Shown: positions 15,953 through 48,931, numbered from the whole stretch's first letter. The stretch is DNA of 62,342 nt, filler included, from Babesia bigemina (GCF_000981445.1; 14 parts of 14 records of this genome joined end to end with filler, not necessarily neighbours in it); one strand, 5' to 3'. Numbers and translations: made by a program. The notes: generated by a model not told the origin, from the letters alone.

Positions 15953-15973
15953 GAAGATCCTTTGATTTTCTAC

Positions 15974-18255: not shown

Positions 18256-18343
18256 TCACAATAACCTAACTGGCAACTGACATCTAATGTGCTAGACAGA
18301 GTAATGGTTGTACTGATGCTAAATAAAATTAGCAGTGAGGTGA

Positions 18344-18475: not shown

Positions 18476-18602
18476 ACTATGCAATTTAGTAGCGCATAAA
18501 TCGTTCGTCCATATTCCACTGCTCACCTAACTGGCAACTGACATCTAATGTTCTAGACAGTAATGATTGCGTTGATGGCCAATTACATGAGCAGTGAGGT
18601 GA

Positions 18603-18761
18603 CTACTTCACTCTCCCTACTCGGCCATCGCCGCCGTCATCGTTGGCATCATCGTCGCCATCATCCTGCTCGACCTGTGCATCTTCCGCTTTCCGGTGGG
18701 CCGCAACATCCGCGATTTCCTCGTACGCAAGATACCCTTCTGCATCGCGTTCTACAGCTAA
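18603..18761 (+). pseudogene. Orphan TM-tail cassette (PYSAIAAVIVGIIVAIILLDLCIFRFPVGRNIRDFLVRKIPFCIAFYS*)
   Basis: Second tandem copy, with the same flanks as 18344-18475. Confidence 0.85.
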
Positions 18762-18981
18762 ACTCAGCAATATGTTGGCGCTAACATTCTTAATCGAAAT
18801 CCCACAGATCACCTGACTGGCGACTGACATCTAATGTTCTAGACAGAGTAGCAATTGCGTTGATGATCAATGACATGAGCANNNNNNNNNNNNNNNNNNN
18901 NNNNNNNNNNNNNNNNNNNNNNNNNTTAATTAATTAANNNNNNNNNNNNNNNNNNNNNNNNNNNNNNNNNNNNNNNNNNNN

Positions 18982-19292
18982 AGTGGATAAGGGGCGATGT
19001 AGAGTGGGTTAAGGGGCGATGTAGAGTGGATAAGGGGCGATGTAGAGTGGATTAGGGAGCGATGTAGAGTGGTTTAGGGAGCGATGTAGAGTGGATCAAG
19101 GGGCGATGTAGAGGGGATAAAGGAGCGATGTAGATTGGTTAAGGGGCGATGTAGAGTGGATTAGGGAGCGATGTAGAGTGGTTTAGGGAGCGATGTAGAG
19201 TGGGTTAGGGAGCGATGTGGAGTGGATAAGGGGCGATGGAGAGTGGATAAAGGGGCGGTGTAGAGTGGGTAAAGGGGCGATGTAGAGTGGAT
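18982..19292. repeat. 22/23-bp G-rich tandem repeat (GCGATGTAGAGTGGRTWARGGRG)
   Basis: Direct inspection. Confidence 0.97.
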
Positions 19293-19315
19293 AATAATCA
19301 CCACTTAGGTCACCA

Positions 19316-22300: not shown

Positions 22301-22552
22301 TTTTTAAGGGTCGAAGAAATTTCGCAAAATTAGGTGAAAGGGCAGTCAGGGAGGTAAAGGGAGGTGGAGAGGGAGGTGAGGGAAGTGATGGAGATTAAGA
22401 TAACAAAAATTTGGTCAATTTCGGATGAGGTAATTTTTCTGAGGCGATTTAGGCAATTTTTAGGGGTCGAAGAAATATTGCAAAATTAGGTGAAAGGGCA
22501 GTTAGAGGGGTTAAGGGAGGTGATGAAGGGGATGGTAAGTGTAATTAAAGAA

Positions 22553-23316
22553 GCGATGTGGAGTGGATAAAGGGGCGATGTAGAGTGGGTCAAGGGGCGA
22601 TGTGGAGTGGATAAAGGGGCGATGTAGAGTGGGTTAAGGGCGATGTAGAGTGGGTTAAGGGCGATGTAGAGTGGATAAAGGGGCGATGTGGAGTGGATAA
22701 GGAGCGATGTAGAGTGGATAAAGGGGCGATGTGGAGTGGATAAGGGGCGATGTAGAGTGGGTTAAGGAGCGACGTAGAGTGGATAATAATCACCACTTGT
22801 GACCATGTCATCGCTGCCGTAACCATGTCATCGCTGTCGTAACCATGTCATCGCTGCCGTGACCACTAACTTGGTGAGGTGCTTGGTCATCACGTTGGTC
22901 ATGGCATTGGTCAACACTTTGGTCAGCACATTGGTCATGGCATTGGTCAACACTTTGGTCACCACTTTGGTCATGGCATTGGTCAGCACCTTGGTCAACA
23001 CCTTGGTCACCACGTTGGTCAGCACATTGGTCAGCACTTTGGTCACCACTCTGGTCAACACGTTGGTCAGCTGTTAGGTCAGCACTTTGGTCAGCACATT
23101 GATCAACACTGTCATCGCTGCCGTGTCCATGTCATCGCTGCCGTGCCCATGTCATCGCTGCCGTAACCACAACAATGTCATCGCTGCCGTGACCATGTCA
23201 TCGCTGCCGTAACCATGTCATCGCTGCCGTTACCATGTCATCGCTGCCGTGACCATGTCATCGCTGCCGTGTCCATGTCATCGCTGCCGTGACCATGTCA
23301 TCGCTGCCGTAACCAC
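22553..23316. repeat. Composite array: 23-bp (22553-22785), 20-bp (22798-22865), 12-bp (22870-23108), 20-bp (23109-23316)
   Basis: Direct inspection. Confidence 0.95.
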
Positions 23317-24036: not shown

Positions 24037-27000
24037 TTACGGCTGTAGATACGATATCTTGGCAAGCCTTCCGACTTGCGCTGCAGCCAACAGCGATTGC
24101 GCCGTTATTTTGTGCGATGACGGTATCCTCAGGTGTGAGCGTATGTGGAGCACATCCAGTCTGCCAACCATCACGCAGATGAGGTAGAAGAGGGAGAGTG
24201 ACCAGAGTGCGAGAACCATGTAGGTGAACGGCTCTCTGATGGTCCAAATGAAGTTGTCACATTCCTCAAATAATTTGGTGAAGTATTGCGATTTTAGCAG
24301 ATTACTCAGTTGTGTATTGAAACTAAGACAGTATTTTCGGTCAGGTCCATACAGCGTTTTTGCGTCGCCAAAAGTGAACCCGTATTGGTAGAACGTAGTC
24401 ATCACTCCACGACAGCTTATCAATGCGTTGCACTTACAGCTGTACTCGACACCATGCTTTCCCGGCTTGCACGAACATTTCGTACAACCGGAGCCTCCAC
24501 AATCAATCTGCTGGAACGCATCGAGCAACGATTTCAGGTAACTGTAGAATGTCCACGGCAGATATACAGCCCATGACAGGTAGAGATCGGCGTGCTTTTT
24601 GGCGAGGTACGTGTACGCATCGGAAGATGTGGAGCAGAGGTAGGGAGCGCAGTGAATATCCCTGTCATGAGGTAGATTGCATGATTCTCTTGACAGGCTC
24701 CACAAGTCAGCTTCCGTGGATTTGGAATGGCCCGAGCTGTTGTGGCCTGTTTGGTTGCGATATGCATTCTGCAGCGCACCTGTGAGTTTGCTTGTCTCCT
24801 TGTATAGCTCGATGGACAGCGCTTTGGTTTTTGTTTCAAAAGCTAAGCTGACATCATCACTGGCGGACTTGCCATGATCTAACATACTGCTTAGCGTCAA
24901 CGCAAATTGGAAGTGTTCGGGCAACGTAGATGGCGGCTTGGGCAGCAGACCGAACAGCATGTTAATATTCGAATTGTCGAAGAATTTGGTCAGCACGTTA
25001 CATATGTCCTTACCTGTCTTCGTGTATCCAGAGAAACCTCTGAAGCCAAGTGGTGTTATACATGGCGCACCGGGTAGGCTTTTGGGACACGTTTTACATT
25101 CGGACTTACATCCCGCTGAAACCAACTGGTGAGGCAGGCACCCGGGTAGGCAGTCGCGAAGATACGACATCAGCGGTGATCTAGGTAGGCAATCGGTCGA
25201 CTCCTCAGCAGGATGTTCACGGCATTGCCAATTGGAGTGTTTGACTCCTCTGCCGTACTGACAGCCGGACCAGCCGTGGTATGTAGCGCTTAGGCCGCAT
25301 TGAGTATGCAAAAATTTAAGCGAGGGTAGTAGTCTGCGAAGAATGTCCAATAGCATCTGGAGGCAATCTTCGCCCCTGGATGGGTAGTGAAAGTTCAGCG
25401 AATTGGTCGAGTAGTCAACGGCGTACATGGAGTACGCGTCCCCGGTTCCAGCGATTGTTGTGAGAATATCGTGGGATCTGGAACACAGGCGTTTCACTGC
25501 TCGCTGAGTATCATCCATCGCTATGTTTTGTGGATACGCTGCCAGGGGTTCGTCGCTGATATATGTGACGGGGATGCCATCGGCGTCTTCGGGCTGTTTA
25601 CTTGGATCGACGAATAGTTCACTGATAGCGTCATCCAACATATCTTGATACACGTTATTGCACGGGAGACCAGACACCCAGCAAAGCATCTCGAATATGT
25701 TACATGGACGTTTCCTCGCAGAGAAGGTGGCGACGTGGCAGACTTGGTAATATATCTGGAGACAGTCGTGCAGTGTATCCAGTGCGTTTTGCTTGGATTT
25801 ATCAATGTAATACAAGTGGTGTTCATCTTTCCCGAACATACGTTTGCAGATGAATAATCCTATCATGCCTTTACTGTCCTGCAGCTCCCAGTGCTTCTTC
25901 CCGTCCTCGGTAACTTTGTAGCCTTGAGTGGCAAAATATTTTCCGAGCTCTGTGTTCATGTTTATTTGATCGCTTTTACACCTTGCAACGCAGTACTTCA
26001 GTATAGTCTTGAACTCGGAATACAGGATGGAGAGCAGCGACAGGCACACTTTAGCGCATTTCGCGGAGTCTTCGGACGGGTAGTCTTTATTATTTGTTTT
26101 TTGTGACCAAACAATGCTATCGGCACCGTCATACACGTTCACGTACGCCTTTTCCAGCTCACCCACCAGCGCCGGGTACCCCCTTCTCAGCGCTTCCAAA
26201 ACTGACGGACTCTCACCATCGCCGAATTTCTCCGGAGTGAATTGGCCAAGTCGGTACTTAAGCCTTTGCAGGTTTTTTGTAAATCCGTGGTCGAAGTGCT
26301 GTGAATCTGCAAGGTCCTTGAGCAGCTTGTTGAGAGCGTCGTTGGGGGAGGAGATTTTGTCGAAGTCGAAGGTGAAGCCTTTTTGGGTGCGCAATGCATC
26401 AAAAAAATTGGCAAAGGATTGTTTTACTCTTTCTGCTAACTCGTGGAGTTTCTTCTGTTCCAGTGACTTTGGAGGTGGAGACGCCCTTGGGTAAAAGTCT
26501 TCAATTGGAACCATAAATCCGTCTTTGATTTTTTGCAACATACCCTTAATTGCGGTGTTACGATCTTCTTGAATGATCGTGAAAATGTTGCCAAGCTGTG
26601 TGTCAACTAATTTCCGGAGCGCTGCCAAGTCTGCTTCATGCCCCTTGGCAAACAGACTCCTCACCTCCTGGGTCAGTATCTCGATGGACTTTTTCACGGA
26701 TTCGGTAAGATCGTTTTGGACGCTGGTGATTGCACCCTGAAGGGCCTGGCGGGAGGAGAGGACGGCTGTTTTCAGTTTTTCAATGGCGGTGTCTAAAGTT
26801 TCGTTGGCGTCTCTCACAGTGACAGCGATGTTATTCAATTGCCATTTGAGTGTTTCCTTCAACTTATTTAACAGCTCTACAGCATCACTGGTTTTGCTAA
26901 CTACGGTTGAGGGAATTGTTTTGAGCCCACTAATGTGGCTGTCAATGAACTTTGCCGCATTTGTGAGCGCTGTATTGGCGGCGTACAATGATGGCATAAG

Positions 27001-29562
27001 GTGACTTAGATCTTCGCCAATCTTCGCAGCTAAGTCCCAACCCCCGCCTTTTTGACCAAATGCTTCCCGAACCTTCGACACAAGATCATCGGTAAGGTCT
27101 ACCCCAGTTCTGATCGCCGTTGTTAATACGTTTTTCCTATAATTAAAGTTATATTTTTTTTCGAGATTCACAATAATTCTGCCACTCGCTGCACTATCCT
27201 TAGTCATTTTGTTAACATGAGTTTTGACAGCATGAATGGCTTTGTCAAGGTCGCTGGCCGGAGCACCAATGAGATTCTTAGACAGTTCACCAGCCAAAAT
27301 TCGTGCCTCATCTACGTTCTTAAATTTACAATCGTTCAGCAATATTTCCACCATATTTGCAGCTTGCCTGGCGGTAGCGTAGAGAGCGGGAAGGGTATAT
27401 TCGACGGCTATCCCAAGGTTTGGATTGCTAATTTCCAATGGTTTATAGTGTGCTGATTGCAAAATGTTTCTCTCAACGTTCTTGGCTATTTTTTCGGCCA
27501 CATCCGTAATGACTTCGGATAACAGTTTAGCATCAAGCCCTCTAACAAATTCATTGATACAAGACACGACTTTCTGCAGCACCGTTTTGCTGTCATCCCG
27601 TTCATCAATAATAAGATTGACTTTGCCAATTTCTGCATTAAACTCCGATTTAATGGCAGCGATGATTTGGCGGCGAATGGCATCCACATTATCAAATCCA
27701 ATATTAAACTTATTCGCCAACTTGTAATCACGTTGACTTTGCTGAATATGTTGATCAATCTTCTTATCTTTAATTAAAATACTCTCAATCCACCCTCCCA
27801 AAACTTTATTTTCGAAATGTTGCTTAGTGAAGTTCTTACCATACGCCTCAACTGCACTAGCTATTCCCCCGAGGCCTTCTCTATTATTGTTATGACCATT
27901 CAGCAATTTTACAGCTTCGCCACTAATTTTGTTTACCGCTTCCTTTATAGTTTTTTTACACACAGCTCCATCAGTACCGATTGCGCTGCAAAGTTTTTCA
28001 ATCGCCGGATCAACTTTCTCCACATCCAGTTTCATATCCCACAACTTCTCCTTATACGCCTGTTCAAGCTCCTCTATGGCTATCGTAGCTTTTTTGACGT
28101 AAGCCGTCGCATGTTCCGCCAACTTATTATTGATGGTCGTTCTCAACTTCTCCAAATCATGTTTCACGAAATCACCCAACCCGGCAACGTAATCCTGGAC
28201 CGTTTTGATGTTGGTGGTGAACAGAGTGTCTACATCTCCTTTGACGAACTCCTCAATTGCCACTTTAATTTCCTTAAAATATCCAATAACCTTTTTATTA
28301 GAACCTTCACGGTAATCCCCCAGCTCCCTTTCTACTGCGTCCCTGGACATGTCAATCGCGGCTCGGATGGTTGACACTTTTTCTGCTTTACTCCGTATCA
28401 GACTTTCGACAGTAGAATTTATTTTTTCGAATTCGTTATGCAATGTATCGCGAAGTTTATGTGATTTCAAGTCTATCTGCTGTACTAATTCAGTCTGCTG
28501 TTTTCCCAACTCATCGTCCACTGCTTTCACCTGACTCACGAATTTTTTGTTATTTGACGACTCACGTAAGTGCTCTAAAACCTTTTTTATTGGTGTCATT
28601 TCACCATTCATTTTATTACTTAACTTAGTATCTAACAAATTGATTCTTTCTGTTTCGATTTTTCTGACCTCTTGCTTAAGGCTGTTAATTGCAGTGGTCC
28701 AAGCCGTCAGCTGTACATTAAGTTCGTTCGAGGAGTTGATTTTGCTACTTTTATCGATGATAGAAGTGTCATTTAATTTCACTAGCGCCGTTATCACTTC
28801 ACTGTTTTTTTCATCTAACTTATTCCCATACCCCTCCAACCACCTCTTCACCGCGCCGACAGCTTCCACAAGCCCAGCACGCCCGGAGCCAATTTTACTA
28901 TCTACAAGTTTTAGTACTTCATTAAGCTTTTTATTGTCTTCAGTGATGTAATTATCATAAGTTGTGACTTCATTTTCGTTTTTCACCGCACCAAGCACAC
29001 CACTCAAAAATCCCATCACCCCGTCACACATCCTGTCAAGGTCAGAGTACACAATCCCCTGGCCAGTGTAGCCTTTAGTGTCAGAGTCGAAGCCGAGGAA
29101 GGTTTCGATGCCGGAACATAGATTATCTAACAGCTTTTTAGGATCATTTGACGCATTATTACGATTAGTCAAAAATTCACAAAGCTTCTCCACTTCCTTC
29201 AAAGCGTCCAACTTGGACTGCAATTTGTCTGGGTCAGCAGAGGGAGTGGGGGAAGAAGGAAGATTATTAAGATGGTTATTAGGCTGTTTAAGTTGATCTT
29301 CAAGACGCTGAATTTCTGGAGTAACTAACTTACTAAGCTCACTAATTTTCACGGTGTCAACAGCCTGGTCAACAGACTTGACAGACTCAGAAAGCTTAGT
29401 AACATAAGGAGAGTAAAGCTTTTTTAGGTCATCATGACTGTTAATTTTAGCGATAATAGCATTCTCAACGGCTTTCTTAACACTCTCACTTTGACCAACA
29501 AATCCGCCAAGTTGACCAGCAAGGTGACCAAGGCTAATGAGCTTGGACTCAATGTCCTCCAA
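24037..29562 (-). CDS. ves1: Long VESA1-family gene (1841 codons, tail type B ...KISYLQP); first in-frame ATG at 29031
   Basis: GIVYSDLDRMCDGVMGFLSGVL block, long coiled-coil region, Cys-rich domain, TM and tail. Confidence 0.9.
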   Translation of the reverse strand: MEDIESKLISLGHLAGQLGGFVGQSESVKKAVENAIIAKINSHDDLKKLYSPYVTKLSESVKSVDQAVDTVKISELSKLVTPEIQRLEDQLKQPNNHLNNLPSSPTPSADPDKLQSKLDALKEVEKLCEFLTNRNNASNDPKKLLDNLCSGIETFLGFDSDTKGYTGQGIVYSDLDRMCDGVMGFLSGVLGAVKNENEVTTYDNYITEDNKKLNEVLKLVDSKIGSGRAGLVEAVGAVKRWLEGYGNKLDEKNSEVITALVKLNDTSIIDKSSKINSSNELNVQLTAWTTAINSLKQEVRKIETERINLLDTKLSNKMNGEMTPIKKVLEHLRESSNNKKFVSQVKAVDDELGKQQTELVQQIDLKSHKLRDTLHNEFEKINSTVESLIRSKAEKVSTIRAAIDMSRDAVERELGDYREGSNKKVIGYFKEIKVAIEEFVKGDVDTLFTTNIKTVQDYVAGLGDFVKHDLEKLRTTINNKLAEHATAYVKKATIAIEELEQAYKEKLWDMKLDVEKVDPAIEKLCSAIGTDGAVCKKTIKEAVNKISGEAVKLLNGHNNNREGLGGIASAVEAYGKNFTKQHFENKVLGGWIESILIKDKKIDQHIQQSQRDYKLANKFNIGFDNVDAIRRQIIAAIKSEFNAEIGKVNLIIDERDDSKTVLQKVVSCINEFVRGLDAKLLSEVITDVAEKIAKNVERNILQSAHYKPLEISNPNLGIAVEYTLPALYATARQAANMVEILLNDCKFKNVDEARILAGELSKNLIGAPASDLDKAIHAVKTHVNKMTKDSAASGRIIVNLEKKYNFNYRKNVLTTAIRTGVDLTDDLVSKVREAFGQKGGGWDLAAKIGEDLSHLMPSLYAANTALTNAAKFIDSHISGLKTIPSTVVSKTSDAVELLNKLKETLKWQLNNIAVTVRDANETLDTAIEKLKTAVLSSRQALQGAITSVQNDLTESVKKSIEILTQEVRSLFAKGHEADLAALRKLVDTQLGNIFTIIQEDRNTAIKGMLQKIKDGFMVPIEDFYPRASPPPKSLEQKKLHELAERVKQSFANFFDALRTQKGFTFDFDKISSPNDALNKLLKDLADSQHFDHGFTKNLQRLKYRLGQFTPEKFGDGESPSVLEALRRGYPALVGELEKAYVNVYDGADSIVWSQKTNNKDYPSEDSAKCAKVCLSLLSILYSEFKTILKYCVARCKSDQINMNTELGKYFATQGYKVTEDGKKHWELQDSKGMIGLFICKRMFGKDEHHLYYIDKSKQNALDTLHDCLQIYYQVCHVATFSARKRPCNIFEMLCWVSGLPCNNVYQDMLDDAISELFVDPSKQPEDADGIPVTYISDEPLAAYPQNIAMDDTQRAVKRLCSRSHDILTTIAGTGDAYSMYAVDYSTNSLNFHYPSRGEDCLQMLLDILRRLLPSLKFLHTQCGLSATYHGWSGCQYGRGVKHSNWQCREHPAEESTDCLPRSPLMSYLRDCLPGCLPHQLVSAGCKSECKTCPKSLPGAPCITPLGFRGFSGYTKTGKDICNVLTKFFDNSNINMLFGLLPKPPSTLPEHFQFALTLSSMLDHGKSASDDVSLAFETKTKALSIELYKETSKLTGALQNAYRNQTGHNSSGHSKSTEADLWSLSRESCNLPHDRDIHCAPYLCSTSSDAYTYLAKKHADLYLSWAVYLPWTFYSYLKSLLDAFQQIDCGGSGCTKCSCKPGKHGVEYSCKCNALISCRGVMTTFYQYGFTFGDAKTLYGPDRKYCLSFNTQLSNLLKSQYFTKLFEECDNFIWTIREPFTYMVLALWSLSLFYLICVMVGRLDVLHIRSHLRIPSSHKITAQSLLAAAQVGRLAKISYLQP

Positions 29563-29736
29563 AGCTTTTTAGTAGCATCATCAATAAAAGAATGGTCAGT
29601 ATCAGCAAGTACTTATAAAGGTTTATAGAGGTCATAGCGTTGATAAGACAAAGTAATTCGAGAGATTTGGACTTAGGGTGAACATGATGGGACATGGCAG
29701 TGGCAAGCGGTGGAAGAAGGGAAGTGAAGAGCGACA

Positions 29737-29794
29737 AGGCACAAGTTATTATTGTGGTTAATAGAGGTCATAGCGGTATTATGGCGAGGTAATT
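29737..29794 (-). promoter_or_regulatory. Conserved ves 5' leader (AATTACCTCGCCATAATACCGCTATGACCT...ATAACTTGTGCCT); also ~40345-40402, ~48868-48928, ~59947-60008 and ~60301-60362
   Basis: Five copies, each immediately after a 23-bp array; four are followed by a ves frame and the fifth runs into a contig end. Function unknown. Confidence 0.7.
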
Positions 29795-32700
29795 TGGGCG
29801 ATGTAGAGTGGGTAAAGGGGCGATGTGGAGTGGATCAGGGAGCGATGAAGAGTGGATAAAGCGGCGATGTAGAGTGGATTAGGGAGCGATGTAGAGTGGA
29901 TAAAGGGGCGATGTAGAGTGGGTAAAGGGGCGATGCAGAGTGGGTAAAGAGGCGATGTAGAGTGGGTAAAGGAGCGATGTAGAGTGGATAGAGGAGCGAT
30001 GTAGAGTGGGTAAAGGGGCGATGTGGAGTGGATAAGGGAGCGATGTAGAGTGGATAAGGGAGCGATGTGGAGTGGATAAAGGGGCGATGCAGAGTGGGTA
30101 AAGGGGCGATGTAGAGTGGATAAAGGGGCGATGTAGAGTGGNNNNNNNNNNNNNNNNNNNNNNNNNNNNNNNNNNNNNNNNNNNNTTAATTAATTAANNN
30201 NNNNNNNNNNNNNNNNNNNNNNNNNNNNNNNNNNNNNNNNNAGGGGCGATGTAGAGTGGATAAAGGAGCGATGTAGAGTGGAGTAAGGGGCGATGTAGAG
30301 TGGATAAAGGGGCGATGTAGAGTGGGTAAAGAGGCGATGTGGAGTGGATTAGGAGCGATGTAGAGTGGGTTAAGGGGCGATGTAGAGTGGATTAAGGGGC
30401 GATGTAGAGTGGATAAGGGGCGATGTAGAGTGGGTTAAGGGGCGATGTAGAGTGGATTAAGGGGCGATGTAGAGTGGATAAGGGGCGATGTAGAGTGGGT
30501 TAGGGAGCGATGTAGAGTGGGTTAAGGGGCGATGTAGAGTGGACTAAAAGGCGATGTAGAGTGGATTAGGGAGCGATGTAGACACGGTTAAGGAGCGATG
30601 TGGAGTGAGTTAGGGGGCGATGTGGAGTGGAAAAAGGAGCGATGTAGAGTGGGTAAAGGGGCGATGAAGGGAGGTTAAGGAGCGATGGAGACTGGGTTAG
30701 GGAGCGATGTAGAGTGGGTTAAGGGGCGATGAAGGGTGGGTTAGGGAGCGATGTAGAGTGGGTAAAGGGGCGATGTAGAGTGGGTCAAGGGGCGATGTGG
30801 AGTGGGTTAAGAGGGCGATGTAAACTGGGTTAAGGGGCGATGTAGAGTATGTTAGGGGCGATGTAGAGTGGGTTAGGGACGCGATGTAGATGTGGGTATA
30901 GGAGCGCATGTAGAGTGGATAAAGGAGCGATGTAGAGTGGATAAAGGATGCGATGTAGCGTGGATAAAGGGGCGATGTAGAGTGGGTAAAGGAGCGATGT
31001 AGAGTGGGTTAAGGAGCGATGTAGAGTGAATAAAGGGGCGATGTAGAGTGAATAAAGGGGCGATGTAGAGTGGATTAAGGGGCGATGTAGAGTTGATAAA
31101 GGAGCGATGTAGAGTGGGTAAAGGGCGATGTAGAGTGGATAAAGGGGCGATGTGGAGTGGGTAAGGGACGATGTAGAGTGGGTTAGGGAGCGATGTAGAG
31201 TGGGTTAAGGGGCGATGTAGAGTGGGTTAAGGGGCGATGTGGAGTGGGTAAAGGGGCGGTGTAGAGTGGGTTAAGGGGCGATGTGGAGTGGGTAAAGGGG
31301 CGGTGTAGAGTGGGTTAAGGGGCGATGTAGAGTGGGTTAGGGAGCGATGTAGAGTGGGTTAAGGGGCGATGTAGAGTGGGTTAGGGAGCGATGTAGAGTG
31401 GGTTAAGGGGCGATGTAGAGTAGATTAGGGGCGATGTAGAGTGGGTTAAGGGGCGATGTAGAGTGGATAAAGGGGCGATGTAGAGTGGATAAAGGGGCGA
31501 TGTGGAGTTGATAAAGGGGCGATGTAGAGTGGGTTAGGGAGCGATGTAGAGTGGGTTAAAAGGCGATGTGAAGTGGATAAAGGGGCGATGTAGAGTGGGT
31601 AAAGGGGCGATGTAGAGTGGATAAAGGGGCGATGTAGAGTGGATAAAGGAGCGATGTAGAGTGGGTAAAGGAGCGATGTAGAGTGGATAAAGGGGCGATG
31701 TAGAGTGGATAAAGGGGCGATGTAGAGTGGAGTAAGGGGCGATGTAGAGTGGGTTAAGGGGCGATGTAGAGTGGATAAAGGAGCGATGTAGAGTGGAGTA
31801 AGGGGCGATGTAGAGTGGATAAAGGGGCGATGTAGAGTGGGTAAAGAGGCGATGTGGAGTGGATTAGGAGCGATGTAGAGTGGGTTAAGGGGCGATGTAG
31901 AGTGGATTAAGGGGCGATGTAGAGTGGATAAGGGGCGATGTAGAGTGGGTTAAGGGGCGATGTAGAGTGGATTAAGGGGCGATGTAGAGTGGACAAAGGG
32001 GCGATGTAGAGTGGGTTAGGGAGCGATGTAGAGTGGGTAAAGGGGCGATGTAGAGTGGATAAAGGGGCGATGTAGAGTGGGTAAAGGGGCGATGTGGAGT
32101 GGGTAAGGGAGCGATGTAGAGTGGATAAGGGGCGATGTGGAGTGGGTAAGGGAGCGATGTAGAGTGGATAAGGGGCGATGTAGGGTGGGTAAAGGAGCGA
32201 TGTGGAGTGGATAAAGGAACGATGTAGAGTGGGTTAGGGAGCGATGTAGAGTGGGTTATGGAGCGATGTGGAGTGTGTTAAGGGGCGATGTAAGGTGGAT
32301 AAGGGAGCGATGTAAAGTGGGTTAAGGGGCGATGCAGAGTGGATAAAAAGGCAATGTGGAGTGGATAAAGGAGCGATGTAGAGTGGGTTAGGGAGCGATG
32401 TAGAGTGGGTAAAGGAGCGATGGAGAGTGGGTTAGGGAGCGATGTAGGGTGGGTTAAGGGGCGATGTAGAGTGGGTAAGGGAGCGATGTAGAGTGGATAA
32501 AGGGGCGATGTAGAGTGGATAAAGGGGCGATGTAGAGTGGGTTAGGGAGCGATGTAGAGTGGGTTAAGGGGCGATGTGGAGTGGATTAGGGAGCGATGTA
32601 GAGTGGGTTAAGGGGCGATGTAGAGTGGGTTAAGGAGCGGTGTTGAGTGGGTTAGGGAGCGATGTAGAGTGGGTAAGGGGCTATGTAGAGTGGATAAAGG

Positions 32701-33070
32701 AGCGATGTGGAGTGGGCTAAGGGGCGATGTAGAGTGGATAAGGGAGCGATGTAGAGTGGATAAAGGGGCGATGTAGAGTGGGTTAGGGAGCGATGTAGAG
32801 TGGATTAAGGGGCGATGTAGAGTGGATTAAGGAGCGATGTAAGGTGGGTTAGGGAGCGATGTAGAGTGGGTAAAGGAGCGATGTAGAGTGGGTAAAGGGG
32901 CGATGTAGAGTGGATAAAGGGGCGATGTAGAGTGGGTTAAGGAGCGATGTAGAGTGCATTAGGGAGCGATGTAGAGTGGGTTAAGGGGCGATGTAGAGTG
33001 CATTAGGGAGCGATGTAGAGTGGGTTAAGGGTCGATGTGGAGTGGGTAAAGGGGCGATGTGGAGTGGGTA
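29795..33070. repeat. 23-bp G-rich arrays (29795-30141 and 30242-33070, separated by a linker)
   Basis: Direct inspection; more than 100 units. Confidence 0.98.
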
Positions 33071-33092
33071 ATAATCACCACTTTGGTCACCA

Positions 33093-33272
33093 CTGTCGCC
33101 GCTGCCGTGACCATGTCATCTCTGCCGTGACCATGTCATCGCTGCCGTGACCATGTCATCGCTGCCGTGTCCATGTCATCGCTGCCGTAACCATGTCATC
33201 GCTGCCGTAACCATGTCATCGCTGCCGTGACCATGTCATCGCTGCCGTGACCATGTCATCGCTGCCGTGACC
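33093..33272. repeat. 20-bp tandem repeat
   Basis: CCATGTCATCGCTGCCGTGA units. Confidence 0.95.
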
Positions 33273-33370
33273 ACTAAATTGGTCACCTCACTGCTTATGT
33301 GATTGGCCATCAACGCACTCATTACTCTGTCTAGCACATTAGATGTCAGTTGCCAGTCAGGTTATTGTAA

Positions 33371-33814
33371 TTAGCTGCGCAGTAGATACCGCACCCTGTG
33401 GAACGGCCGGATGCGGAAGTATATCATGGCGCAGATGACGACGATGACGAGGGCGATAGGTGCGATGATGTAAGGCGCGGGGGAACCGGTGGTAGGCGGT
33501 TGAATGACGGCTTGATGCTCAGCTGTGCGGGAAGAAGAGGAACCGGAGTCAAGGGCGGCACTGGGAGTTAAAGAGAGACGGGAAGGGTAGAGGACTATGC
33601 GTTTCTCGACACAACAGTTACATAGACAGTCGCTGTAACACTCTTTACATCTCGAATGATCGCACTGCTCCTGTCCATTCTTGCGCAAATAGGAGAAGTG
33701 GATACATTGAAGACACCGTGCTATACATCCTTTACAACACCAAGAACAGCAATTACACACTACCTCTTCTTTGCATTGCTTATTACACTTGTAACACCGC
33801 TCCCCTTTCCCCAT
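33371..33814 (-). CDS. Small 18-Cys hypervariable single-TM protein, copy 2 (147 aa)
   Basis: Same scaffold, start context and YFRIRPFHRVRYLLRS tail. Confidence 0.85.
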   Translation of the reverse strand: MGKGERCYKCNKQCKEEVVCNCCSWCCKGCIARCLQCIHFSYLRKNGQEQCDHSRCKECYSDCLCNCCVEKRIVLYPSRLSLTPSAALDSGSSSSRTAEHQAVIQPPTTGSPAPYIIAPIALVIVVICAMIYFRIRPFHRVRYLLRS

Positions 33815-33924
33815 CTTCCCGCTCCCCTCCCAGTCCCCTCAGCCTGCGAACATATCAATCACCTATCAACGCACTCACCAACTGCAACACGTACCACTGC
33901 CGCTCCCAGTCCCCTCACCAACGC

Positions 33925-34412
33925 ACTCACCGCTGTATCCCCCCAGCCCGGGCCACCGACACCCGCACTGCCCGGGATACCACAGCTGCCCTGACGCGAC
34001 GCATGTCATCAGCACCAACTGTCACTTTAAATTATTCACTATTCGCAACGCCATAAAAATTGCAGCGAGCCACGTGCGCTCAACTCCCACAGTGCAGCAG
34101 CACCGTGCTACGAGCCGCGGTATCGGCGCCATACTGGCGGAGTGTGTCGGCTACGTGCCTAAATGTTATATTAACGATCGCTACATTGCCGCCTATAAAT
34201 GCTACTTAACTAGGCCAACGCGGATTACGCCACCCTGCCAGCGACTCGCAACACACGGCTTACGTCACCCGCCGCGGCCCTCACGGCCGCCTACGTTAGC
34301 GACCAATCACCCAGCCTCACGTGACACTCACTCAATGGGTAACGCGTACACCTCTCACAGTCAACGCACAACTCAACGCCACAACACCTACCAAATTACG
34401 GTTCATCCGCCA
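33925..34412 (-). promoter_or_regulatory. Conserved ~500-bp element, copy 2 (followed by only ~1.5 units of the 75-bp repeat, 33820-33925)
   Basis: High similarity to 16826-17330. Confidence 0.6.
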
Positions 34413-34840
34413 GCTTAGCACTTTGCCTGAGTGCTAGGTTAGCACTTTGCCTGGGTGCCAGCTTACCACTTTGCCTGGGTGCTAGGTCACCACTTTGCCT
34501 GAGTGCTAGCTTAGCACTTTGGTCATGGCATTGGTCAACACGTTGCCTGGTTGCCAGCTTAGCACTTTGCCTGGATGCTAGCTTAGCACTTAGCCTGGGT
34601 GCTAGGTCAACACTTAGCCTGGGTGCCAGCTTAGCACTTAGCCTGGTTGCTAGGTTAACACTTCGCCTGTGTGCCAGCTTAGCACGTTGCCTGGTTGCTA
34701 GGTTACTACTTTGCCTGGTTGCCAGCTTAGCACTTTCCCCGGTTGCCAGCTTATCACTTAGCTTGCGTGCTACCTTATCACTTTGCCTGGGTGCTAGGTT
34801 AGCACTTTACCTGCGTGCTAGGTCAACACGTTGCTTGGTC
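34412..34840 (-). repeat. 24-bp tandem repeat
   Basis: Direct inspection. Confidence 0.95.
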
Positions 34841-34979
34841 GTTTAGTCATCACCTAATCTAGGTGTTATTTAGTTCACAGGTTGCCGCTAGAGTAATTCG
34901 ACACATTAGACTACGTTTGTCGGTTAGGTGAGTAGGTGAGATGTTACGTGAGTTGTGTGAATGACAAATGTGACGATGA

Positions 34980-37900
34980 TTACGGTTGTAGATACGATAT
35001 TTTGGCAAGCCTTCCGACTTGCGCTGCCGCCAACAGCGATTGCGCCGTTATCCTGTGCGATGATGGTGATCGTAAGTGCGATTTGATGTGCAGCACATCC
35101 AGTCTGCCAACCATCACGCAGATGAGGTAGAAGAGGGAGAGTGACCAGAGCGCTAGGGTCATCCACAGGAATGGTGCGCGGATGGTGAACATGAAATTAT
35201 CAATGGCTTTGAAGAACTGCACAAGATGTGAGTCTTTCTCAAATGCCTCCTTAAATACATTACAGAAATCTCTGCACGTGCGTTTCGTATGCGATTGTCC
35301 ATCCCTGTTCAGCCTCTCTGGATCGCCGAGAACAAAGCCGTATTTTGCCAATGTCGGCAGCGTTGAATTGCACTTTACAATGGATTTGCATTTGGGATCG
35401 TGATATCGTGGCGGTTGATACGTCGTTGATGTAGTTGGACACTCCTTGACGCACGCTTTTTGATGACAATTCGATCCCCTGGCACCGCATTTGGAGTTGC
35501 ACTCATCGTACAACTTTTTAAGCAGATCGTAGAACGATGCCGTCAGATAGACAATCCACGACAAATACTTATCGGCGTGTTTTGCTGAGAACGTCTCGTA
35601 GATGGCGTGACCGATGGGCCGCAGATAAGGACCGCATACGACGGCGTCCCGTGATAAGCATACGAGACTGGCCAGGCTACCAGCGGCATGCCCCTTCCAC
35701 GCTGCTGAGTGACTAGCGGAAAATAAGTGGTAGACGTTCAAATCATTATACTGACGCCCGAAATTGGCTGCGTTAACTTTCTCATTAAATGCCCGTTGTT
35801 TATGCGCTTGACCATACATACCCCAGCGATCGGTGAGGTGATAGTAGAAGCTGAACATGTCCGCCAGCGTTTTCGGCGCACTAGGCAGAAGGCAGTTGAG
35901 GTAACTGCACAGTCTAGTGAGCGGCGAATTTGGACGGCCACAGAAATACACAAGCACATCGCATATATCCCGGCCAATCATCGTATGCGACGCGATGGCG
36001 CTGATGTCGGCGAAGCCCATTGGAGTTCGGCACGGCATACCAGGTGAATTACCACAAGTGCCACATGACAGACTGGATCCCCTAGCCGTAACCGAATGCG
36101 GCAGGTGGCCTTTCAGACCGTCCTCCAAGAACGATTGCAGTGGCGACTTGACGCCGCAGCTGGGATATTGCTCACCCGTTTGGTTGCCACTTTGGTCATG
36201 CCTTTGGTCACAGTCTTGCTTAGGGCATTGCTTCGTGTTGCACTGCCAGCCCGACCCACCGATGTACCTGCCGTAGTGGCAGTCCCTCCAGCCGCTGAGC
36301 TGTGCGTTGTACTTACACTGCTGCAGCAGGAAGTACAGCTGGTGGTAGAGGCGCTTAAGCAGGTCGAACAACGTGCACAACAGTTGAATCATGTTGGTAG
36401 GGTAATCTAATTTCAGCGAGTTGTCGGAGAAATCACACGCGTAGATTCCGTCCTTGTGACCGTGGCCTAGGATAGCGGTGAGGACGGCGTGGGAGTTGGC
36501 AGACACTTTGTAGAGCGCTTCGTCGATATGCGTGTGTTCAAAGTCAGACGGGTGCGTATCGAAGGGCTGCAGTATCTTCTCACCCGGACGTTGCTTGTCC
36601 TCCTTCATGAACTCGGACTCAATGTGCTTCTTCAGCTTGCCGTACACGGGGTTGAACTGCAGGCCGTTGCACCAGACAAGAATTTCGTAAACGGAGCATG
36701 GAGCCCTGGGTTTGTCAACACGAGTAAGGTGGCATACAGCGAAGTACGTCTGCAGGAAATCATAGAGTTTTCGGATGAGACCACTCTCCTCCGCGATGGT
36801 TACATCAAGCTCGTCCGACCCGGATGTGGATGAAGGAATGCCGGTGACGGGAGATGACAGATGACTGAACAAATTATGCGTCTCGTTGGTAAGGTGTTCG
36901 AGAATGCTGCTACCATTAAAATCAGTTTTGTGATTCAGCTCGCCATGCTCAGCGTTCTCAGGACGATGGACGTCATACCCGTTGTCGCGGAAGAAGAGAG
37001 CGCGGAGGCTGGAGGTGCCGTCAGCTGGGTGATATATTTTGTGGCCATCCCAACCGCTGTATTCGAGTCTATTCTTGAGTTCAGTTAGAGCGTCGTATAA
37101 GATGGGCGTGATGGTCCAACAGATTTTGGCGTAGTTTCTTCTTTCCGCCTCGGTGAGTTTCTCCCATTCGATGGTCCTCAAAGAATACGTTGAAACGTAG
37201 GCTTTTTTGAGCTCCTCGACGAGAGGGGTGAAGCCTGCTTTTAGAGCATTGAGGAGTGAGGGGCACTTGGCTGCGCCGTAGGTAGAGGGCTTGAAGGCGG
37301 TAACAGATTCATTAAGGTTACTCAGGTTCTTGGTGAAGACATGATCGAAGTGCAGTGATTGTGCTAGGACAGTGAGTAAGTTTGTCACTGCGTTGTACGA
37401 AGGCTTGATTTTGGAGGAGTCAGACTCGACATCAGTTTGATTCTGCAGATTAAGGAGGAATGATTTAAAGGCGCCGTGTGATATCGATGCCGCCTCTCTT
37501 AATGGTGACGTTACAGCTGTGAAGGTGTTGGGATTGACATCTTCAATCTGCTCTACCCTCGCAATAAACTTCCCCGCCAGCCTGTTCATGAACCCCTTGT
37601 AACCGATGTCCAGATCGTCGGTGATTTCCTTAGGTAGAGGCTCCAACTCCTTCTCGGCTTTCTCCGCGAACTCTAGCAGAATGGCCTTCACCGAAGTGAC
37701 GTAGTTCTTGTTGACCTGGGTGATCAGAGTGTTCTGAGCTTCGTCGACGTTGGAGCTTACTACTTTGCCAATCGATGCGATTGTCGCCTGGGCTGTTGGA
37801 CCGGCGCTGGTGAGGAAGTTTTCAGCCTCTTTGATGGCCGCGCTTAAATCAATCAATCGCAGGTCGTTGAGTTTGTTTTTGACGTATTCAAGTTGCCCCT

Positions 37901-40349
37901 TTATGGTCTCCGTTTTAATTGTGTCCAGGTTCCACTTCGCGTTGGAGGCTTCGTCTTTAAGGATCTTACATAGCTCACTGAGCGTGGACTTGACGCTTTC
38001 TATATCCTCATTAGCATATCTATTGTAATCGTCAATTGACGTTAGAGCGTTTTTTACATCATCTCGTATTTTTTTAATTGCCTCTGGCAGGGTGCCTGCT
38101 AACTTATTTGGATCTCGATCCGCGACTGCCAAACTTTCTGGCCTTTGGTCAACTTGCAACTTATATTTTCCAAAAATCGTTATATCCGTATCTTGAAGGT
38201 TAACTTTATCTGCACCAAGATATCCCGGAAACTGCTGCTCAAGCGTATTTGTTACTCCTCTGATTGCAGTGTCGACGTCAGCCGCAAGGTTATTCGTTTT
38301 TCCAGATGAACCAACAGGTTGCCCAAGCGCTGCTTTTAGCTTATCGAATAACAGATTCACTTTACTGTGAGCGTCATCGATTTTGGCTGCGATACTGTTC
38401 TTTGAGCCGTTTGGCCTTTGCTTGAGAGCAAAGGAGTGCAACTCTTTTGCGGCTTGCTTGGCTCTGGAAGACATCGCTGATAGCGTTATCAAAATGGCGA
38501 GGTGGAGATTCGTGTTGTCGTACGGCGGAAATGATTGCGGCTTGGATTTATTCACTAAGACAGCCTCAATGGATTGAACGGTATTGTTGAAAAGCGAATT
38601 AAGGTTTCTATCAAGTTCGCTGGCAAATTGCATTATACGTGAGTGTATATTTTGGAGATTCTCGTGAACGTTCTCCGCTGAAGGCAGGTTGACACTTGTA
38701 GCCGTGTTGATTGTATCATCTAGATGCGCAGTAAGTTTTTCTTTAACGGTTGTATTTATACCATCAATCCCATGTTTGTGGAGATTGGTGTCATTGAATT
38801 TATCTCTGTTTTCCCGCACATATTGCAATATATAGCTTTTGTATGTGTGATCCTCTTTCAATATATCGGATACCCACTCACCGACCGTATCCCTAAATCC
38901 ATTGCCGTACTGGTAAACATATCCGCTTACTCCTCTTTCAATACCATTCAGACCTGCGCCATCCCTTCCGCCTCCCTTGATTGCCCCAACTTTATTTCGA
39001 AGTTCTGTTATGATATCTTCAACACTTTTATGCTGTTCGCCTGCTACTCGGCCGGCACTAGAATCTTTAGGGAAATTATTCCCAAGCTCCTTAATATTTG
39101 TATCAACCTTATCGACTGCTTCCTTAATGGCCTTCTTCACCTTAAACAAATCCGCTTTCAGCTCACCGTCCATCGTTATGACAGCTCTAAGCGCTGCCGT
39201 GACTTCCGTTTGAACTTTTCGTTTAGCATCATCTCCTGCGCTGTGGAGCACTAATACTGCAGCTTTCAACTGCTCCACGACGCTATGCATTCTATACGTC
39301 TTCGTGCTGGAATCCTTCTCATTCGATTCCGCCAATACTTTATTCACCTTTTCCAGCGCCACATTCACATAGCTCTCCGCCTTCTTCATACACGCTTCTA
39401 GCTGCTTAACGTATTTTTCCAGATCTGTGCTTATCTCCCTCAGCTTCTTCAAAATTTTCTGCACCCTCAATTTCAAATCATTAACTAATTTATCTATATC
39501 GTCACCCACCTGCTTGTTTATGCAGCTCTTCAAATTGCGGAAACTTGTCTTAATCTTCTCCGTCGTCTCCTTCAACTCAGCGTCTTTCCGCTTGTGCACG
39601 CTGGCCAGCCGCTGGCTCTCGTACTCAACAAGCTTACGAACATGCAACACTTTGTCACGCAACTTATCATTAAGGTCATAAATGTTTTTTTTCATCTTAG
39701 TGTTGTTATTTGCCTTGGGGTCCAGGAATTCCGCGCACCTCTTGCTCCTATCTGTGGCCTCCTTCAGCCGGTCGCCGCAGGACCTTACGGCGTCGGCCAG
39801 CTGTGGATCCAGATCATGTTTGTCAACCTGAATCTTATTAATGCTAGTAATCAACTCACCTCCATTTTTCTTGGTGTAGTCGAGCAGTTTTTTAAGCGGC
39901 TCAATCACTGCTTCATTAGAAGACTTTACATTACCATTATACCCCCGCACCCCTGCGACCACCTTTTCAATCGCAACACTAAAACCTTTTTTGCCAAGGT
40001 GTTTATTGGCCTCAAGTGACTTAATAGCTTCTGTAATTTGCTCTTTATGCTGCCCTAAATGGCCATGGATGTTACTAAGCACACCACTCAAAAATCCCAT
40101 CACCCCGTCACACAGCCTGTCCAAGTCAGAGTACACAATCCCCTGGCCGTCGTAGCCTTTGGAGGCAGAGTCGAAGCCGAGGAAGGTTTCGAGGCCAGAG
40201 CAGAGGTTAGTAAGGATGTTAGTAGGGTTGTTATTTGAGGTGATTTTAAGGTTCAAAATTTCATCAAATTTCTTGTCAAGCTCCCTAGGCGGTACATGGT
40301 CAGGGCAGTGGCAGAGGTGGAAGGAGGGAAGTGAAGGGTGACCAGGCAC
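34980..40349 (-). CDS. ves1: Long VESA1-family gene (1789 codons, tail type B); first in-frame ATG at 40100
   Basis: Same domain order and conserved blocks as 24037-29562. Confidence 0.9.
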   Translation of the reverse strand: MPGHPSLPSFHLCHCPDHVPPRELDKKFDEILNLKITSNNNPTNILTNLCSGLETFLGFDSASKGYDGQGIVYSDLDRLCDGVMGFLSGVLSNIHGHLGQHKEQITEAIKSLEANKHLGKKGFSVAIEKVVAGVRGYNGNVKSSNEAVIEPLKKLLDYTKKNGGELITSINKIQVDKHDLDPQLADAVRSCGDRLKEATDRSKRCAEFLDPKANNNTKMKKNIYDLNDKLRDKVLHVRKLVEYESQRLASVHKRKDAELKETTEKIKTSFRNLKSCINKQVGDDIDKLVNDLKLRVQKILKKLREISTDLEKYVKQLEACMKKAESYVNVALEKVNKVLAESNEKDSSTKTYRMHSVVEQLKAAVLVLHSAGDDAKRKVQTEVTAALRAVITMDGELKADLFKVKKAIKEAVDKVDTNIKELGNNFPKDSSAGRVAGEQHKSVEDIITELRNKVGAIKGGGRDGAGLNGIERGVSGYVYQYGNGFRDTVGEWVSDILKEDHTYKSYILQYVRENRDKFNDTNLHKHGIDGINTTVKEKLTAHLDDTINTATSVNLPSAENVHENLQNIHSRIMQFASELDRNLNSLFNNTVQSIEAVLVNKSKPQSFPPYDNTNLHLAILITLSAMSSRAKQAAKELHSFALKQRPNGSKNSIAAKIDDAHSKVNLLFDKLKAALGQPVGSSGKTNNLAADVDTAIRGVTNTLEQQFPGYLGADKVNLQDTDITIFGKYKLQVDQRPESLAVADRDPNKLAGTLPEAIKKIRDDVKNALTSIDDYNRYANEDIESVKSTLSELCKILKDEASNAKWNLDTIKTETIKGQLEYVKNKLNDLRLIDLSAAIKEAENFLTSAGPTAQATIASIGKVVSSNVDEAQNTLITQVNKNYVTSVKAILLEFAEKAEKELEPLPKEITDDLDIGYKGFMNRLAGKFIARVEQIEDVNPNTFTAVTSPLREAASISHGAFKSFLLNLQNQTDVESDSSKIKPSYNAVTNLLTVLAQSLHFDHVFTKNLSNLNESVTAFKPSTYGAAKCPSLLNALKAGFTPLVEELKKAYVSTYSLRTIEWEKLTEAERRNYAKICWTITPILYDALTELKNRLEYSGWDGHKIYHPADGTSSLRALFFRDNGYDVHRPENAEHGELNHKTDFNGSSILEHLTNETHNLFSHLSSPVTGIPSSTSGSDELDVTIAEESGLIRKLYDFLQTYFAVCHLTRVDKPRAPCSVYEILVWCNGLQFNPVYGKLKKHIESEFMKEDKQRPGEKILQPFDTHPSDFEHTHIDEALYKVSANSHAVLTAILGHGHKDGIYACDFSDNSLKLDYPTNMIQLLCTLFDLLKRLYHQLYFLLQQCKYNAQLSGWRDCHYGRYIGGSGWQCNTKQCPKQDCDQRHDQSGNQTGEQYPSCGVKSPLQSFLEDGLKGHLPHSVTARGSSLSCGTCGNSPGMPCRTPMGFADISAIASHTMIGRDICDVLVYFCGRPNSPLTRLCSYLNCLLPSAPKTLADMFSFYYHLTDRWGMYGQAHKQRAFNEKVNAANFGRQYNDLNVYHLFSASHSAAWKGHAAGSLASLVCLSRDAVVCGPYLRPIGHAIYETFSAKHADKYLSWIVYLTASFYDLLKKLYDECNSKCGARGSNCHQKACVKECPTTSTTYQPPRYHDPKCKSIVKCNSTLPTLAKYGFVLGDPERLNRDGQSHTKRTCRDFCNVFKEAFEKDSHLVQFFKAIDNFMFTIRAPFLWMTLALWSLSLFYLICVMVGRLDVLHIKSHLRSPSSHRITAQSLLAAAQVGRLAKISYLQP

Positions 40350-40404
40350 AAGTTATTATAATGGTGTAAGAAGGTCATAGCGGTATTATGGCAAGGTAAT
40401 TCGA

Positions 40405-48871: not shown

Positions 48872-48931
48872 GGCACAAGTTATTATTGTGGTTTAAAGAG
48901 GTCATAGCGGTAATATGGCGAGGTAATTGGA

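What the first reader, a model, noticed from the sequence alone, without database searches (positions are those of the whole stretch)
29795..33070. Kilobase G-rich 23-bp arrays always lie 5' of ves, with G-quadruplex and telomere-like motifs
Seen: every ves 5' end present abuts this array, with the G-rich strand as template. Units contain GGGTTAGGG, GGGTTAAGGGG or GGGTAAAGGGG, so two adjacent units can supply four G-tracts. Arrays range from ~0.2 to more than 2.8 kb. Known: 70-bp repeats delimit VSG conversion in Trypanosoma brucei, and a G4 is required for pilE variation in Neisseria. Inference: a 5' homology or break-initiation element for ves switching, or a silencer that recruits telomere proteins.
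Basis: partly seen in the sequence, partly recalled or inferred. Interest (0 to 1): 0.7.

Follow-up and report, generated by a model that had tools for sequence, protein, structure and literature searches.

The report
Repeat caps truncated Babesia antigen genes
A G-rich tandem repeat of 22 bases (not 23) sits directly in front of five Babesia surface-antigen gene copies that all lack their normal start, and it likely acts as shared DNA through which such copies recombine, rather than as a G-quadruplex or telomere signal.

Summary
The array is real, but its unit is 22 bp. The reported interval is two contig ends joined by a spacer, and about 1.4 kb of the 2.8-kb piece duplicates the next array, probably an assembly error. 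All 5 ves bodies whose 5' side is assembled abut an array, G-rich strand as template. They are Babesia bigemina ves1b-type genes, and none has the canonical start. Array plus a conserved ~80-nt leader stands in its place, joined at four different points of the gene. The leader-to-array join recurs in four public runs. The array is the last block of a nested 24/75/12/20/22-bp repeat cassette. G4 potential is modest (19 of 125 unit pairs carry four G3 tracts; fewer strong windows than shuffles), and TTAGGG is never tandem. Best reading (0.5): a rep20/70-bp-like homology block, co-duplicated with probably subtelomeric ves1b cassettes, which marks where copies recombine. Silence of these copies is not shown, since published peptides match three of four leader-type genes checked. 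I found no description in the papers searched, and the scan had no earlier finding on it.

The parts
29796..30141 (+). 22-bp array, piece at a contig end, abutting the leader of the 24037-29568 gene; G-rich on +
30142..30241 (.). assembly spacer (N runs around a stop-in-all-frames linker); not biological
30242..33071 (+). 22-bp array, piece at the start of the next contig; 30242-31073 and 31433-31993 duplicate the 40407 array (probable misassembly)
29715..29794 (-). conserved leader 1 with an ATG at 29771 whose frame stops after 32 codons
29600..29660 (-). second leader copy (ATG at 29635, frame stops after 28 codons); limits approximate
24037..29568 (-). ves1b-type long ORF (1843 aa stop to stop); homology to canonical proteins begins near their residue 105-130
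33063..33082 (.). conserved linker between the 22-bp and 20-bp arrays, a 5-bp-stem mini-palindrome; present at 6 of 6 assembled upstream array ends
33100..33273 (+). 20-bp array; its unit is an inverted relative of the 22-bp unit (shared GCGATG core)
33371..33814 (-). small Cys-rich ORF with a C-terminal hydrophobic segment (147 aa), preceded by 75-bp-type repeat sequence and a short-loop G4 motif at 33818-33838
34412..34821 (+). 24-bp array behind the 3' end of the next ves gene
34980..40352 (-). ves1b-type long ORF (1790 aa); homology to canonical proteins begins near their residue 130
40322..40402 (-). leader (ATG at 40378, not in frame with the long ORF)
40407..42284 (+). 22-bp array in two pieces, split by a spacer at 41751-41850
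43226..48892 (-). ves1b-type long ORF (1888 aa), near full length but without the first ~13 canonical codons
48849..48928 (-). leader (ATG at 48905, frame stops after 20 codons)
48934..49579 (+). complete 22-bp array (646 bp)
22546..22786 (+). complete 22-bp array (241 bp) joined without a leader, via a 156-bp duplication, to a ves lacking its first ~950-1200 codons
19721..22303 (-). 5'-truncated ves1b-type ORF (860 aa)
18982..19294 (+). 22-bp array piece running to a contig end
54048..56160 (-). 22-bp array filling a whole contig (2.1 kb; G-rich on -)
59598..59945 (-). complete 22-bp array (348 bp), followed on + by a leader at 59946-60007 cut by the contig end
60111..60297 (-). 22-bp array piece before two leaders (60298-60407 and 60434-60513)
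60488..62341 (+). ves1b-type ORF, open at the window end, two-leader type

Best explanation
The element is a degenerate 22-bp minisatellite, the gene-proximal block of a nested repeat cassette between head-to-tail Babesia ves1b-type genes, where it stands with a conserved ~80-nt leader in place of the canonical gene start and likely serves as shared 5' homology for recombination among these copies. Shown: the unit, the cassette order, the missing canonical start, four different join points in the window and more in public runs. Inferred from named relatives: the clusters are subtelomeric and transcribed away from the chromosome end. Inferred mechanism: the cassette spreads with the genes by duplication; slippage and unequal exchange set array length; strand exchange that begins in the array or leader and resolves in conserved ves sequence swaps or truncates gene bodies. 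The capped copies would then be mainly a reservoir of ves1b sequence, as 70-bp-flanked VSG copies are. A role in antigenic switching is untested.
For: 5 of 6 assembled gene-side array ends meet the same leader, and the sixth meets a ves truncated by about 1000 codons. Bodies join at about residues 14, 105-130, 130 and 950-1200 of canonical proteins. In runs X1-X4 (four studies), listed loose ends behind the leader read into the array in 7, 9, 2 and 1 contigs. A form with the array joined past leader 1 is listed in X1, X2 and X4, and one X1 contig has the array straight on the gene body. At least six different gene-side continuations of the leader are listed. Of 92 homologues, 24 of 70 B. bigemina proteins and 0 of 22 B. 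ovata proteins have leader-derived starts; 15 of 17 canonical B. bigemina starts lie on contigs over 0.8 Mb, against 5 of 24 leader types. On a quick tree of the last 260 aa, leader types are scattered (22 changes for 27 rows, shuffled mean 23.2), and P0023 and P0056, tagged to different chromosomes and of different 5' type, are identical there. Three tagged leader-type genes lie 21, 35 and 88 kb from contig ends on the reverse strand. The leader ATG does not read into the long ORF in 4 of 4 window copies. ves1b loci are the least orthologous between strains, 0-3.3% (PMC4066756 Table 2).
Against: No switching event or conversion tract was observed, and co-duplication alone explains the co-location. 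14 database gene models have the leader ATG in frame with the body at identical spacing, so one subclass may be translated. Published peptides match 3 of 4 tagged leader-type genes and 2 of 2 other non-canonical ones, each with 1-2 quantifying peptides, so the copies are not shown to be silent. Whether canonical-start (expressed-type) genes carry the array upstream, which a 70-bp-like role needs, could not be seen: no genome is held. The different joins could be old deletions in decaying copies. The exact identity between the 30242 and 40407 arrays is better read as misassembly than as exchange. The homologue set is not independent of the window: P0085 is identical to the 24037 ORF over the 260 aa compared.
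Confidence: 0.5

Rival explanations
1. Neutral subtelomeric satellite: the array arose once by inverted duplication of the 20-bp repeat and is carried along as ves1b clusters duplicate and decay. It does no work in variation.
For: The 20-bp and 22-bp units are inverted relatives (11.4 of 17 expected matches against 9.1 +/- 0.7; 0 of 300 permutations), and the 12-bp and 24-bp units are same-strand relatives (0 of 300). 96 unit variants among 319 22-nt units. Length varies freely. No leader-type start among 22 B. ovata homologues.
Against: Both array borders are precisely conserved (6 of 6 upstream linkers; 5 of 6 gene-side leaders), and the join is kept in four public runs. The same cap sits on bodies cut at different points.
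Confidence: 0.25
2. The leader is a real alternative 5' end of a B. bigemina-specific ves1b subfamily, and the array is its upstream control region: a multimer of a protein-binding site (GCGATG core) that silences or drives the gene, like rep20 next to subtelomeric var promoters.
For: 14 gene models open from the leader ATG at fixed spacing. Peptides match leader-type genes. GCGATG is at about 43 per kb in both the 20-bp and 22-bp arrays against 0.8 per kb in ves ORFs. In a related Babesia, subtelomeric multigene families carry H3K9me3 (10.1101/2024.01.17.575932, passages).
Against: 0 of 4 window copies read through from the leader ATG, and the bodies follow the leader in different frames. Leader codons 1-30 are no more conserved (80%) than codons 31-55 (80%), and less than codons 56-90 (88%). 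Some copies lack the leader altogether. The peptides come from another strain and may reflect shared patches.
Confidence: 0.15
3. One reading: the G-rich strand folds into G-quadruplexes that start DNA breaks for ves switching (pilE-like), or recruits telomere proteins.
For: Strand skew is extreme (G 1338, C 143 in 30242-33069). Mean G4Hunter is about 1.0, with 24% of windows at 1.2 or more. There are 11 G3 motifs with loops up to 12 against 7.6 +/- 2.1 in shuffles (18 of 200 reach it). G4 motifs are reported enriched near ves loci in B. bovis (PMC9047050, passages).
Against: Only 53 of 131 units have both G3 tracts, and 19 of 125 pairs have four. Short-loop motifs and strong windows are rarer than in shuffles. 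The middle tract's third G is polymorphic, G 0.56 and A 0.42. Sense transcription would use the G strand as template; by my reasoning that does not free it, so antisense transcription would be needed. TTAGGG is never tandem. The best short-loop motifs lie at the 75-bp repeats, not in this array. [quoted passage not shown]
Confidence: 0.1

Closest known systems
Plasmodium falciparum rep20 (TARE6)
   Same: Subtelomeric tandem repeat, last of a series of repeat blocks, adjacent to the 5' side of a variant antigen gene (PMC3485576, passages). A degenerate unit of about 21 bp is recalled, from no call.
   Different: rep20 is one block per chromosome end before an intact var promoter. Here the cassette repeats before every gene, is strongly G-skewed, and the genes lack their canonical start. 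Sequence homology was not tested.
Trypanosoma brucei 70-bp repeats
   Same: [quoted passage not shown]
   Different: Different unit (AT-rich, recalled). There the repeats also flank the expressed gene and donors keep their start. Here an array at an expressed locus is unseen and no conversion is shown.
Pneumocystis MSG with a single UCS expression site
   Same: Telomere-proximal tandem genes whose start codon is supplied from elsewhere (PMC3485576, passages). A conserved junction element heads each silent copy (CRJE; recalled, not in the passages read).
   Different: B. bigemina has at least 17 canonical-start ves1b genes in my hit set, not one site, and the leader meets the bodies in different frames.
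Neisseria gonorrhoeae pilE G4
   Same: G-rich DNA upstream of a variant gene.
   Different: pilE uses one 16-bp compact G4 at the expressed locus, with a cis sRNA (PMC4412290, passages). This is a kilobase degenerate array with 11-12-nt loops at many copies.
Babesia ves1 system (B. bovis LAT; BbigVes1b)
   Same: The flanking genes are BbigVes1b-type. Truncated B. bovis ves1 copies were already proposed as conversion donors (PMC2034396), and G4 motifs near ves were noted (PMC9047050).
   Different: The LAT is a head-to-head pair with a bidirectional promoter. These copies are head to tail with a repeat cap, which none of the passages I read describes.

Membership tests
BbigVes1b genes (flanking ORFs) | Homology over the length, including the conserved C-terminal domain, to genes labelled BbigVes1b | tested here: met
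   BLASTP E=0 to P0013 and P0039, whose tags are labelled BbigVes1b in the supplement of PMC4066756
BbigVes1b genes (flanking ORFs) | Canonical N-terminal start motif | tested here: not met
   Absent from all six frames of the window; present at the start of 30 of 92 homologues
pilE-type G4 recombination initiator | Compact motif of four G3 tracts with short loops | tested here: not met
   1 motif with loops up to 7 in 2.8 kb against 3.3 in shuffles; 19 of 125 unit pairs carry four G3 tracts
pilE-type G4 recombination initiator | Folds in vitro; needs cis transcription; required for switching | not testable with these tools
   No RNA holder listed; bench work needed
Telomeric or interstitial telomeric repeat | Tandem T3-4AG3 (B. 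bovis type) or tandem TTAGGG | tested here: not met
   0 TTTAGGG and 0 tandem TTAGGG in 29795-33070; 24 single TTAGGG. The B. bigemina telomere repeat itself was not looked up
rep20/TARE-like subtelomeric repeat | Degenerate short tandem unit in a fixed series of repeat blocks, 5' of a variant gene | tested here: met
rep20/TARE-like subtelomeric repeat | Subtelomeric position | tested here: inconclusive
   Indirect only: tagged leader-type relatives lie 21-88 kb from contig ends; their arrays were not seen, and the window's contigs are unplaced
rep20/TARE-like subtelomeric repeat | One block per chromosome end | tested here: not met
   Repeated before each tandem gene
70-bp-repeat-type conversion boundary | Marks the 5' limit of sequence exchange | tested here: inconclusive
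   Several join points and 5'/3' uncoupling, but no switched clones
70-bp-repeat-type conversion boundary | Present upstream of the expressed gene as well as donors | not testable with these tools
   No genome held
UCS/MSG-type start-less cassettes | Single start-supplying site; junction in one frame for all bodies | tested here: not met
   17 canonical-start B. bigemina homologues; frames differ

The most novel reading that the evidence does not exclude
Babesia bigemina runs a two-tier ves1b system unlike the head-to-head LAT of B. bovis: start-bearing genes inside the chromosomes, plus a large subtelomeric archive of array-capped cassettes, in which a G-skewed 22-bp array and a conserved leader act as the 5' recombination boundary, convergent with trypanosome 70-bp repeats.
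Probability: 0.25. Interest if true: 0.75.

Novelty: new variant of a known kind. Interest (0 to 1): 0.45.

Why it matters
How Babesia focuses recombination on ves genes is an open question (PMC9047050), and ves1b loci are the worst assembled and least orthologous in B. bigemina (PMC4066756). A defined repeat-plus-leader cap gives a concrete cis-element to map breakpoints against. It also shows that many gene models in these clusters start at arbitrary internal methionines or at the leader, and that some are listed only as hypothetical proteins. If the array is only a satellite, the finding is still a useful annotation and assembly warning.

Tried and rejected
Genome-wide co-location could not be tested: no genome is held. 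Pfam gave no ves family hit for the ves ORFs, and Rfam gave only plasmid RNAI. No RNA holder listed; two runs guessed as RNA gave one contig each, not used as evidence on expression. Fold-back or cruciform across the 20/22-bp junction: z = -2.4 against shuffles at one junction, but the real junction folded better than a flipped-arm control in only 2 of 6; rejected. Leader as a relic of canonical coding sequence: a profile of its first 22 or 28 codons found nothing in 33 start-motif proteins (best -0.2 bits); weak similarity begins only near codon 22; origin unknown. 'Only canonical-start genes are detected by proteomics': suggested by the 18 rows labelled BbigVes1b (10 are in my set, all with the start motif; 8 are not in my set), but direct tag searches found 5 of 6 non-canonical genes under 'hypothetical protein'. 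The first two Fisher tests are therefore void. Array as coding sequence or as an intron: the period is not a multiple of three, and no upstream exon with the canonical start exists in the window. Array identity 30242/40407 as proof of conversion: not accepted because of the read-end error pattern. The tree is the quick tree only (careful search unfinished) and used 78 of 100 homologues, those ending in the conserved tail, plus 6 window ORFs. The Atlas search of the small Cys-rich protein gave no hit at 0.9 or more. The promoter paper PMC3294438 is not held. Two searches of earlier findings gave nothing relevant.

Full report
Setting. The window is a chain of short contigs joined by identical 100-nt spacers (13 spacers), and includes cloning-vector contigs (beta-lactamase and RNAI). 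No whole genome is held. The long ORFs are relatives of Babesia bigemina and B. ovata proteins: all 92 hits are from these two species. They align over their length with proteins whose tags are labelled BbigVes1b in the proteomics supplement of PMC4066756, so I call them ves1b-type.

The observation. The array is at the stated place, with GC skew near +0.8. Splitting all ten array pieces at their invariant core gives 379 units, of which 319 are 22 nt and 5 are 23 nt. Five positions carry most of the variation, four of them purine swaps. The interval 29795-33070 is two contig ends around a spacer at 30142-30241. The long piece holds two blocks that copy the next array: 31433-31993 equals 40407-40967 exactly, and 30242-31073 matches 40731-41556 for 450 nt and then gathers single-base insertions and substitutions. 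That pattern suggests a misplaced read with a poor tail, and the 23-nt units of this array all lie there. Very recent exchange between arrays is not excluded. Only three arrays have both ends in one contig (241, 348 and 646 bp), but pieces of 1.34 and 2.11 kb suggest that kilobase arrays exist.

Anatomy. On the ves sense strand the order is: ves stop; then, in some spacers, 24-bp repeats, about 480 bp of conserved unique DNA, 75-bp repeats and a small Cys-rich ORF; then usually 12-bp repeats; 20-bp repeats; a conserved linker; the 22-bp array; a conserved leader; the next ves body. All 6 assembled upstream array ends meet the same linker and the 20-bp array. Of 6 assembled gene-side ends, 5 meet the leader and 1 meets a ves truncated by about 1000 codons. 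The 20-bp and 22-bp units are inverted relatives, and the 12-bp and 24-bp units are same-strand relatives (0 of 300 permutations each). A stable fold-back across the junction was not supported (2 of 6 better than control).

The ves ends are not native. 30 of 92 homologues begin with one canonical start motif, which is absent from the window in all six frames. Window bodies begin near residues 14, 105-130, 130 and 950-1200 of canonical proteins. The leader holds an ATG, but in 4 of 4 window copies it does not read into the long ORF. Against this, 14 of the 17 hits are gene models in which the leader ATG is in frame at fixed spacing. Leader-derived starts occur in 24 of 70 B. bigemina homologues and 0 of 22 B. 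ovata ones. 23 B. bigemina models on small contigs and 4 on large ones start at other internal methionines and could not be classed. Canonical starts sit mostly on contigs over 0.8 Mb (15 of 17) and leader types mostly on contigs under 0.1 Mb (19 of 24). These rows are paralogues and not independent, and P0085 is identical to a window ORF over the 260 aa compared.

Other isolates. Contigs of runs X1-X4 (four studies) cover the leader: 114, 80, 10 and 2 contigs were laid. Listed loose ends behind it read into the array in 7, 9, 2 and 1 contigs; 31 further loose-end rows were not shown. A form with the array joined past leader 1 is listed in X1, X2 and X4, and at least six gene-side continuations of the leader appear. 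One X1 contig has the array directly on the near-full-length body. The reverse question, whether arrays always lead to ves, remains open.

Position. The supplement of PMC4066756 gives coordinates for tagged relatives. Taking them as concatenated chromosomes and using contig lengths, three leader-type genes end 21, 35 and 88 kb from contig ends. They lie among reverse-strand genes at right-hand ends, with gaps of 1.2-5.5 kb between near-adjacent tags against 1.7-5.4 kb in the window. If those genes carry the array, its G strand runs toward the chromosome end. This is inference; their DNA was not seen.

Expression. Two co-dominant VESA1B proteins and 17 minor ones were reported in a non-clonal isolate (PMC4066756 section 23). 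Of 18 rows labelled BbigVes1b, the 10 in my set all keep the start motif. But 5 of 6 non-canonical tags that I searched are also in the table as hypothetical proteins, with 1-2 quantifying peptides and iBAQ 14-700 against 8525 for the top row. One untyped gene of the same cluster has 7 quantifying peptides. The peptides are from another strain and may reflect shared or converted patches. Silence of capped copies is therefore not shown.

G4 and telomere claims. 53 of 131 units in the interval have both G3 tracts, and 19 of 125 adjacent pairs offer four. In 30242-33069, G3 motifs with loops up to 12 number 11 against 7.6 +/- 2.1 in dinucleotide shuffles (18 of 200 reach it); with loops up to 7, 1 against 3.3. 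Windows with G4Hunter of 1.5 or more make up 2.4% against 10.5%. Some units could fold, and two-tier forms are possible throughout, but the array is not optimised for it. TTAGGG occurs 24 times, never in tandem, and TTTAGGG not at all in the interval. The B. bovis telomere repeat is CCCTA3-4 (PMC2034396). G4 enrichment near ves in B. bovis is already in print (PMC9047050).

Mechanism. I commit to a co-duplicated homology block (0.5). Shown: conserved borders, several join points, the missing canonical start, and 5' type scattered over the C-terminal tree (22 changes for 27 rows, shuffled mean 23.2; quick tree). Inferred: subtelomeric position, exchange that starts in the array or leader, and a donor role. 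Rivals: neutral satellite (0.25), alternative start with upstream control array (0.15), G4 or telomere-protein element (0.10).

Comparison and novelty. It works most like rep20 in placement and like the 70-bp repeats in proposed role. It is a member of neither family, and fails the tests for a pilE-type G4, a telomeric repeat and a single-site UCS system. Searches listed no paper that describes this array or leader. The library lacks most subscription papers. What I saw of each paper: PMC4066756, abstract, passages, section 22 part 1 of 2, section 23, and term searches of supplements 2 and 3 (figures not seen, and these may show the repeats); PMC8612549, abstract and outline; passages only for PMC5660447, PMC9047050, PMC2034396, 10.1101/2024.01.17.575932 (supplements not seen), PMC6630957, PMC9131526, PMC3485576, PMC7999288 and PMC4412290. 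The rep20 unit length, the AT-richness of the 70-bp repeats and the name CRJE are recalled. Verdict: a real feature, a new variant of a known kind, interest 0.45.

Noticed in passing
window 50502-51074 (-), 33371-33814 (-), about 17795-18255 (+); tail fragments near 18257-18881, 50260-50370 and 58909-59111: Small Cys-rich proteins with a highly variable N-terminal part and a nearly invariant hydrophobic C-terminal tail. All 36 hits are B. bigemina, unnamed and without Pfam; no Atlas hit at 0.9. It looks like a further variant membrane family interleaved with ves1b.
   Followed up: partly
window 17342-17790, 33818-33925, 51086-51752, 57951-58568: 75-bp repeats precede the small Cys-rich genes with the G-rich strand as coding strand, the opposite of the 22-bp array. 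Two end in a short-loop four-tract G4 motif just before the ORF (17770-17790, 33818-33838). Translations of these repeats appear as false N-termini in several database models.
   Followed up: partly
window 33063-33273 and five similar junctions: The 20-bp and 22-bp arrays are inverted relatives around a small conserved palindrome, which suggests an old fold-back duplication.
   Followed up: yes
window 12096-16250: Two contigs of cloning-vector sequence (TEM-type beta-lactamase fragments, RNAI): contamination of the assembly.
   Followed up: no
window 22213-22522: 156-bp tandem duplication of degenerate ves sequence at the join between an array and a truncated ves. It falls in a C-rich coding patch that is also seen near codons 1000-1100 of the longer copies.
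   Followed up: partly
window 34840-36374 and 52409-53941: Two ves 3' regions are 89% identical over 1.5 kb, while most ves pairs are about 65-70% alike there. The two kinds of ves tail go with two kinds of spacer, with or without the 24-bp block.
   Followed up: no
window 924-1598 (-) and 10623-11738 (+): A 224-aa ORF with an N-terminal hydrophobic stretch and no Pfam hit, and a 371-aa ORF with a weak CS-domain hit, on separate contigs.
   Followed up: no
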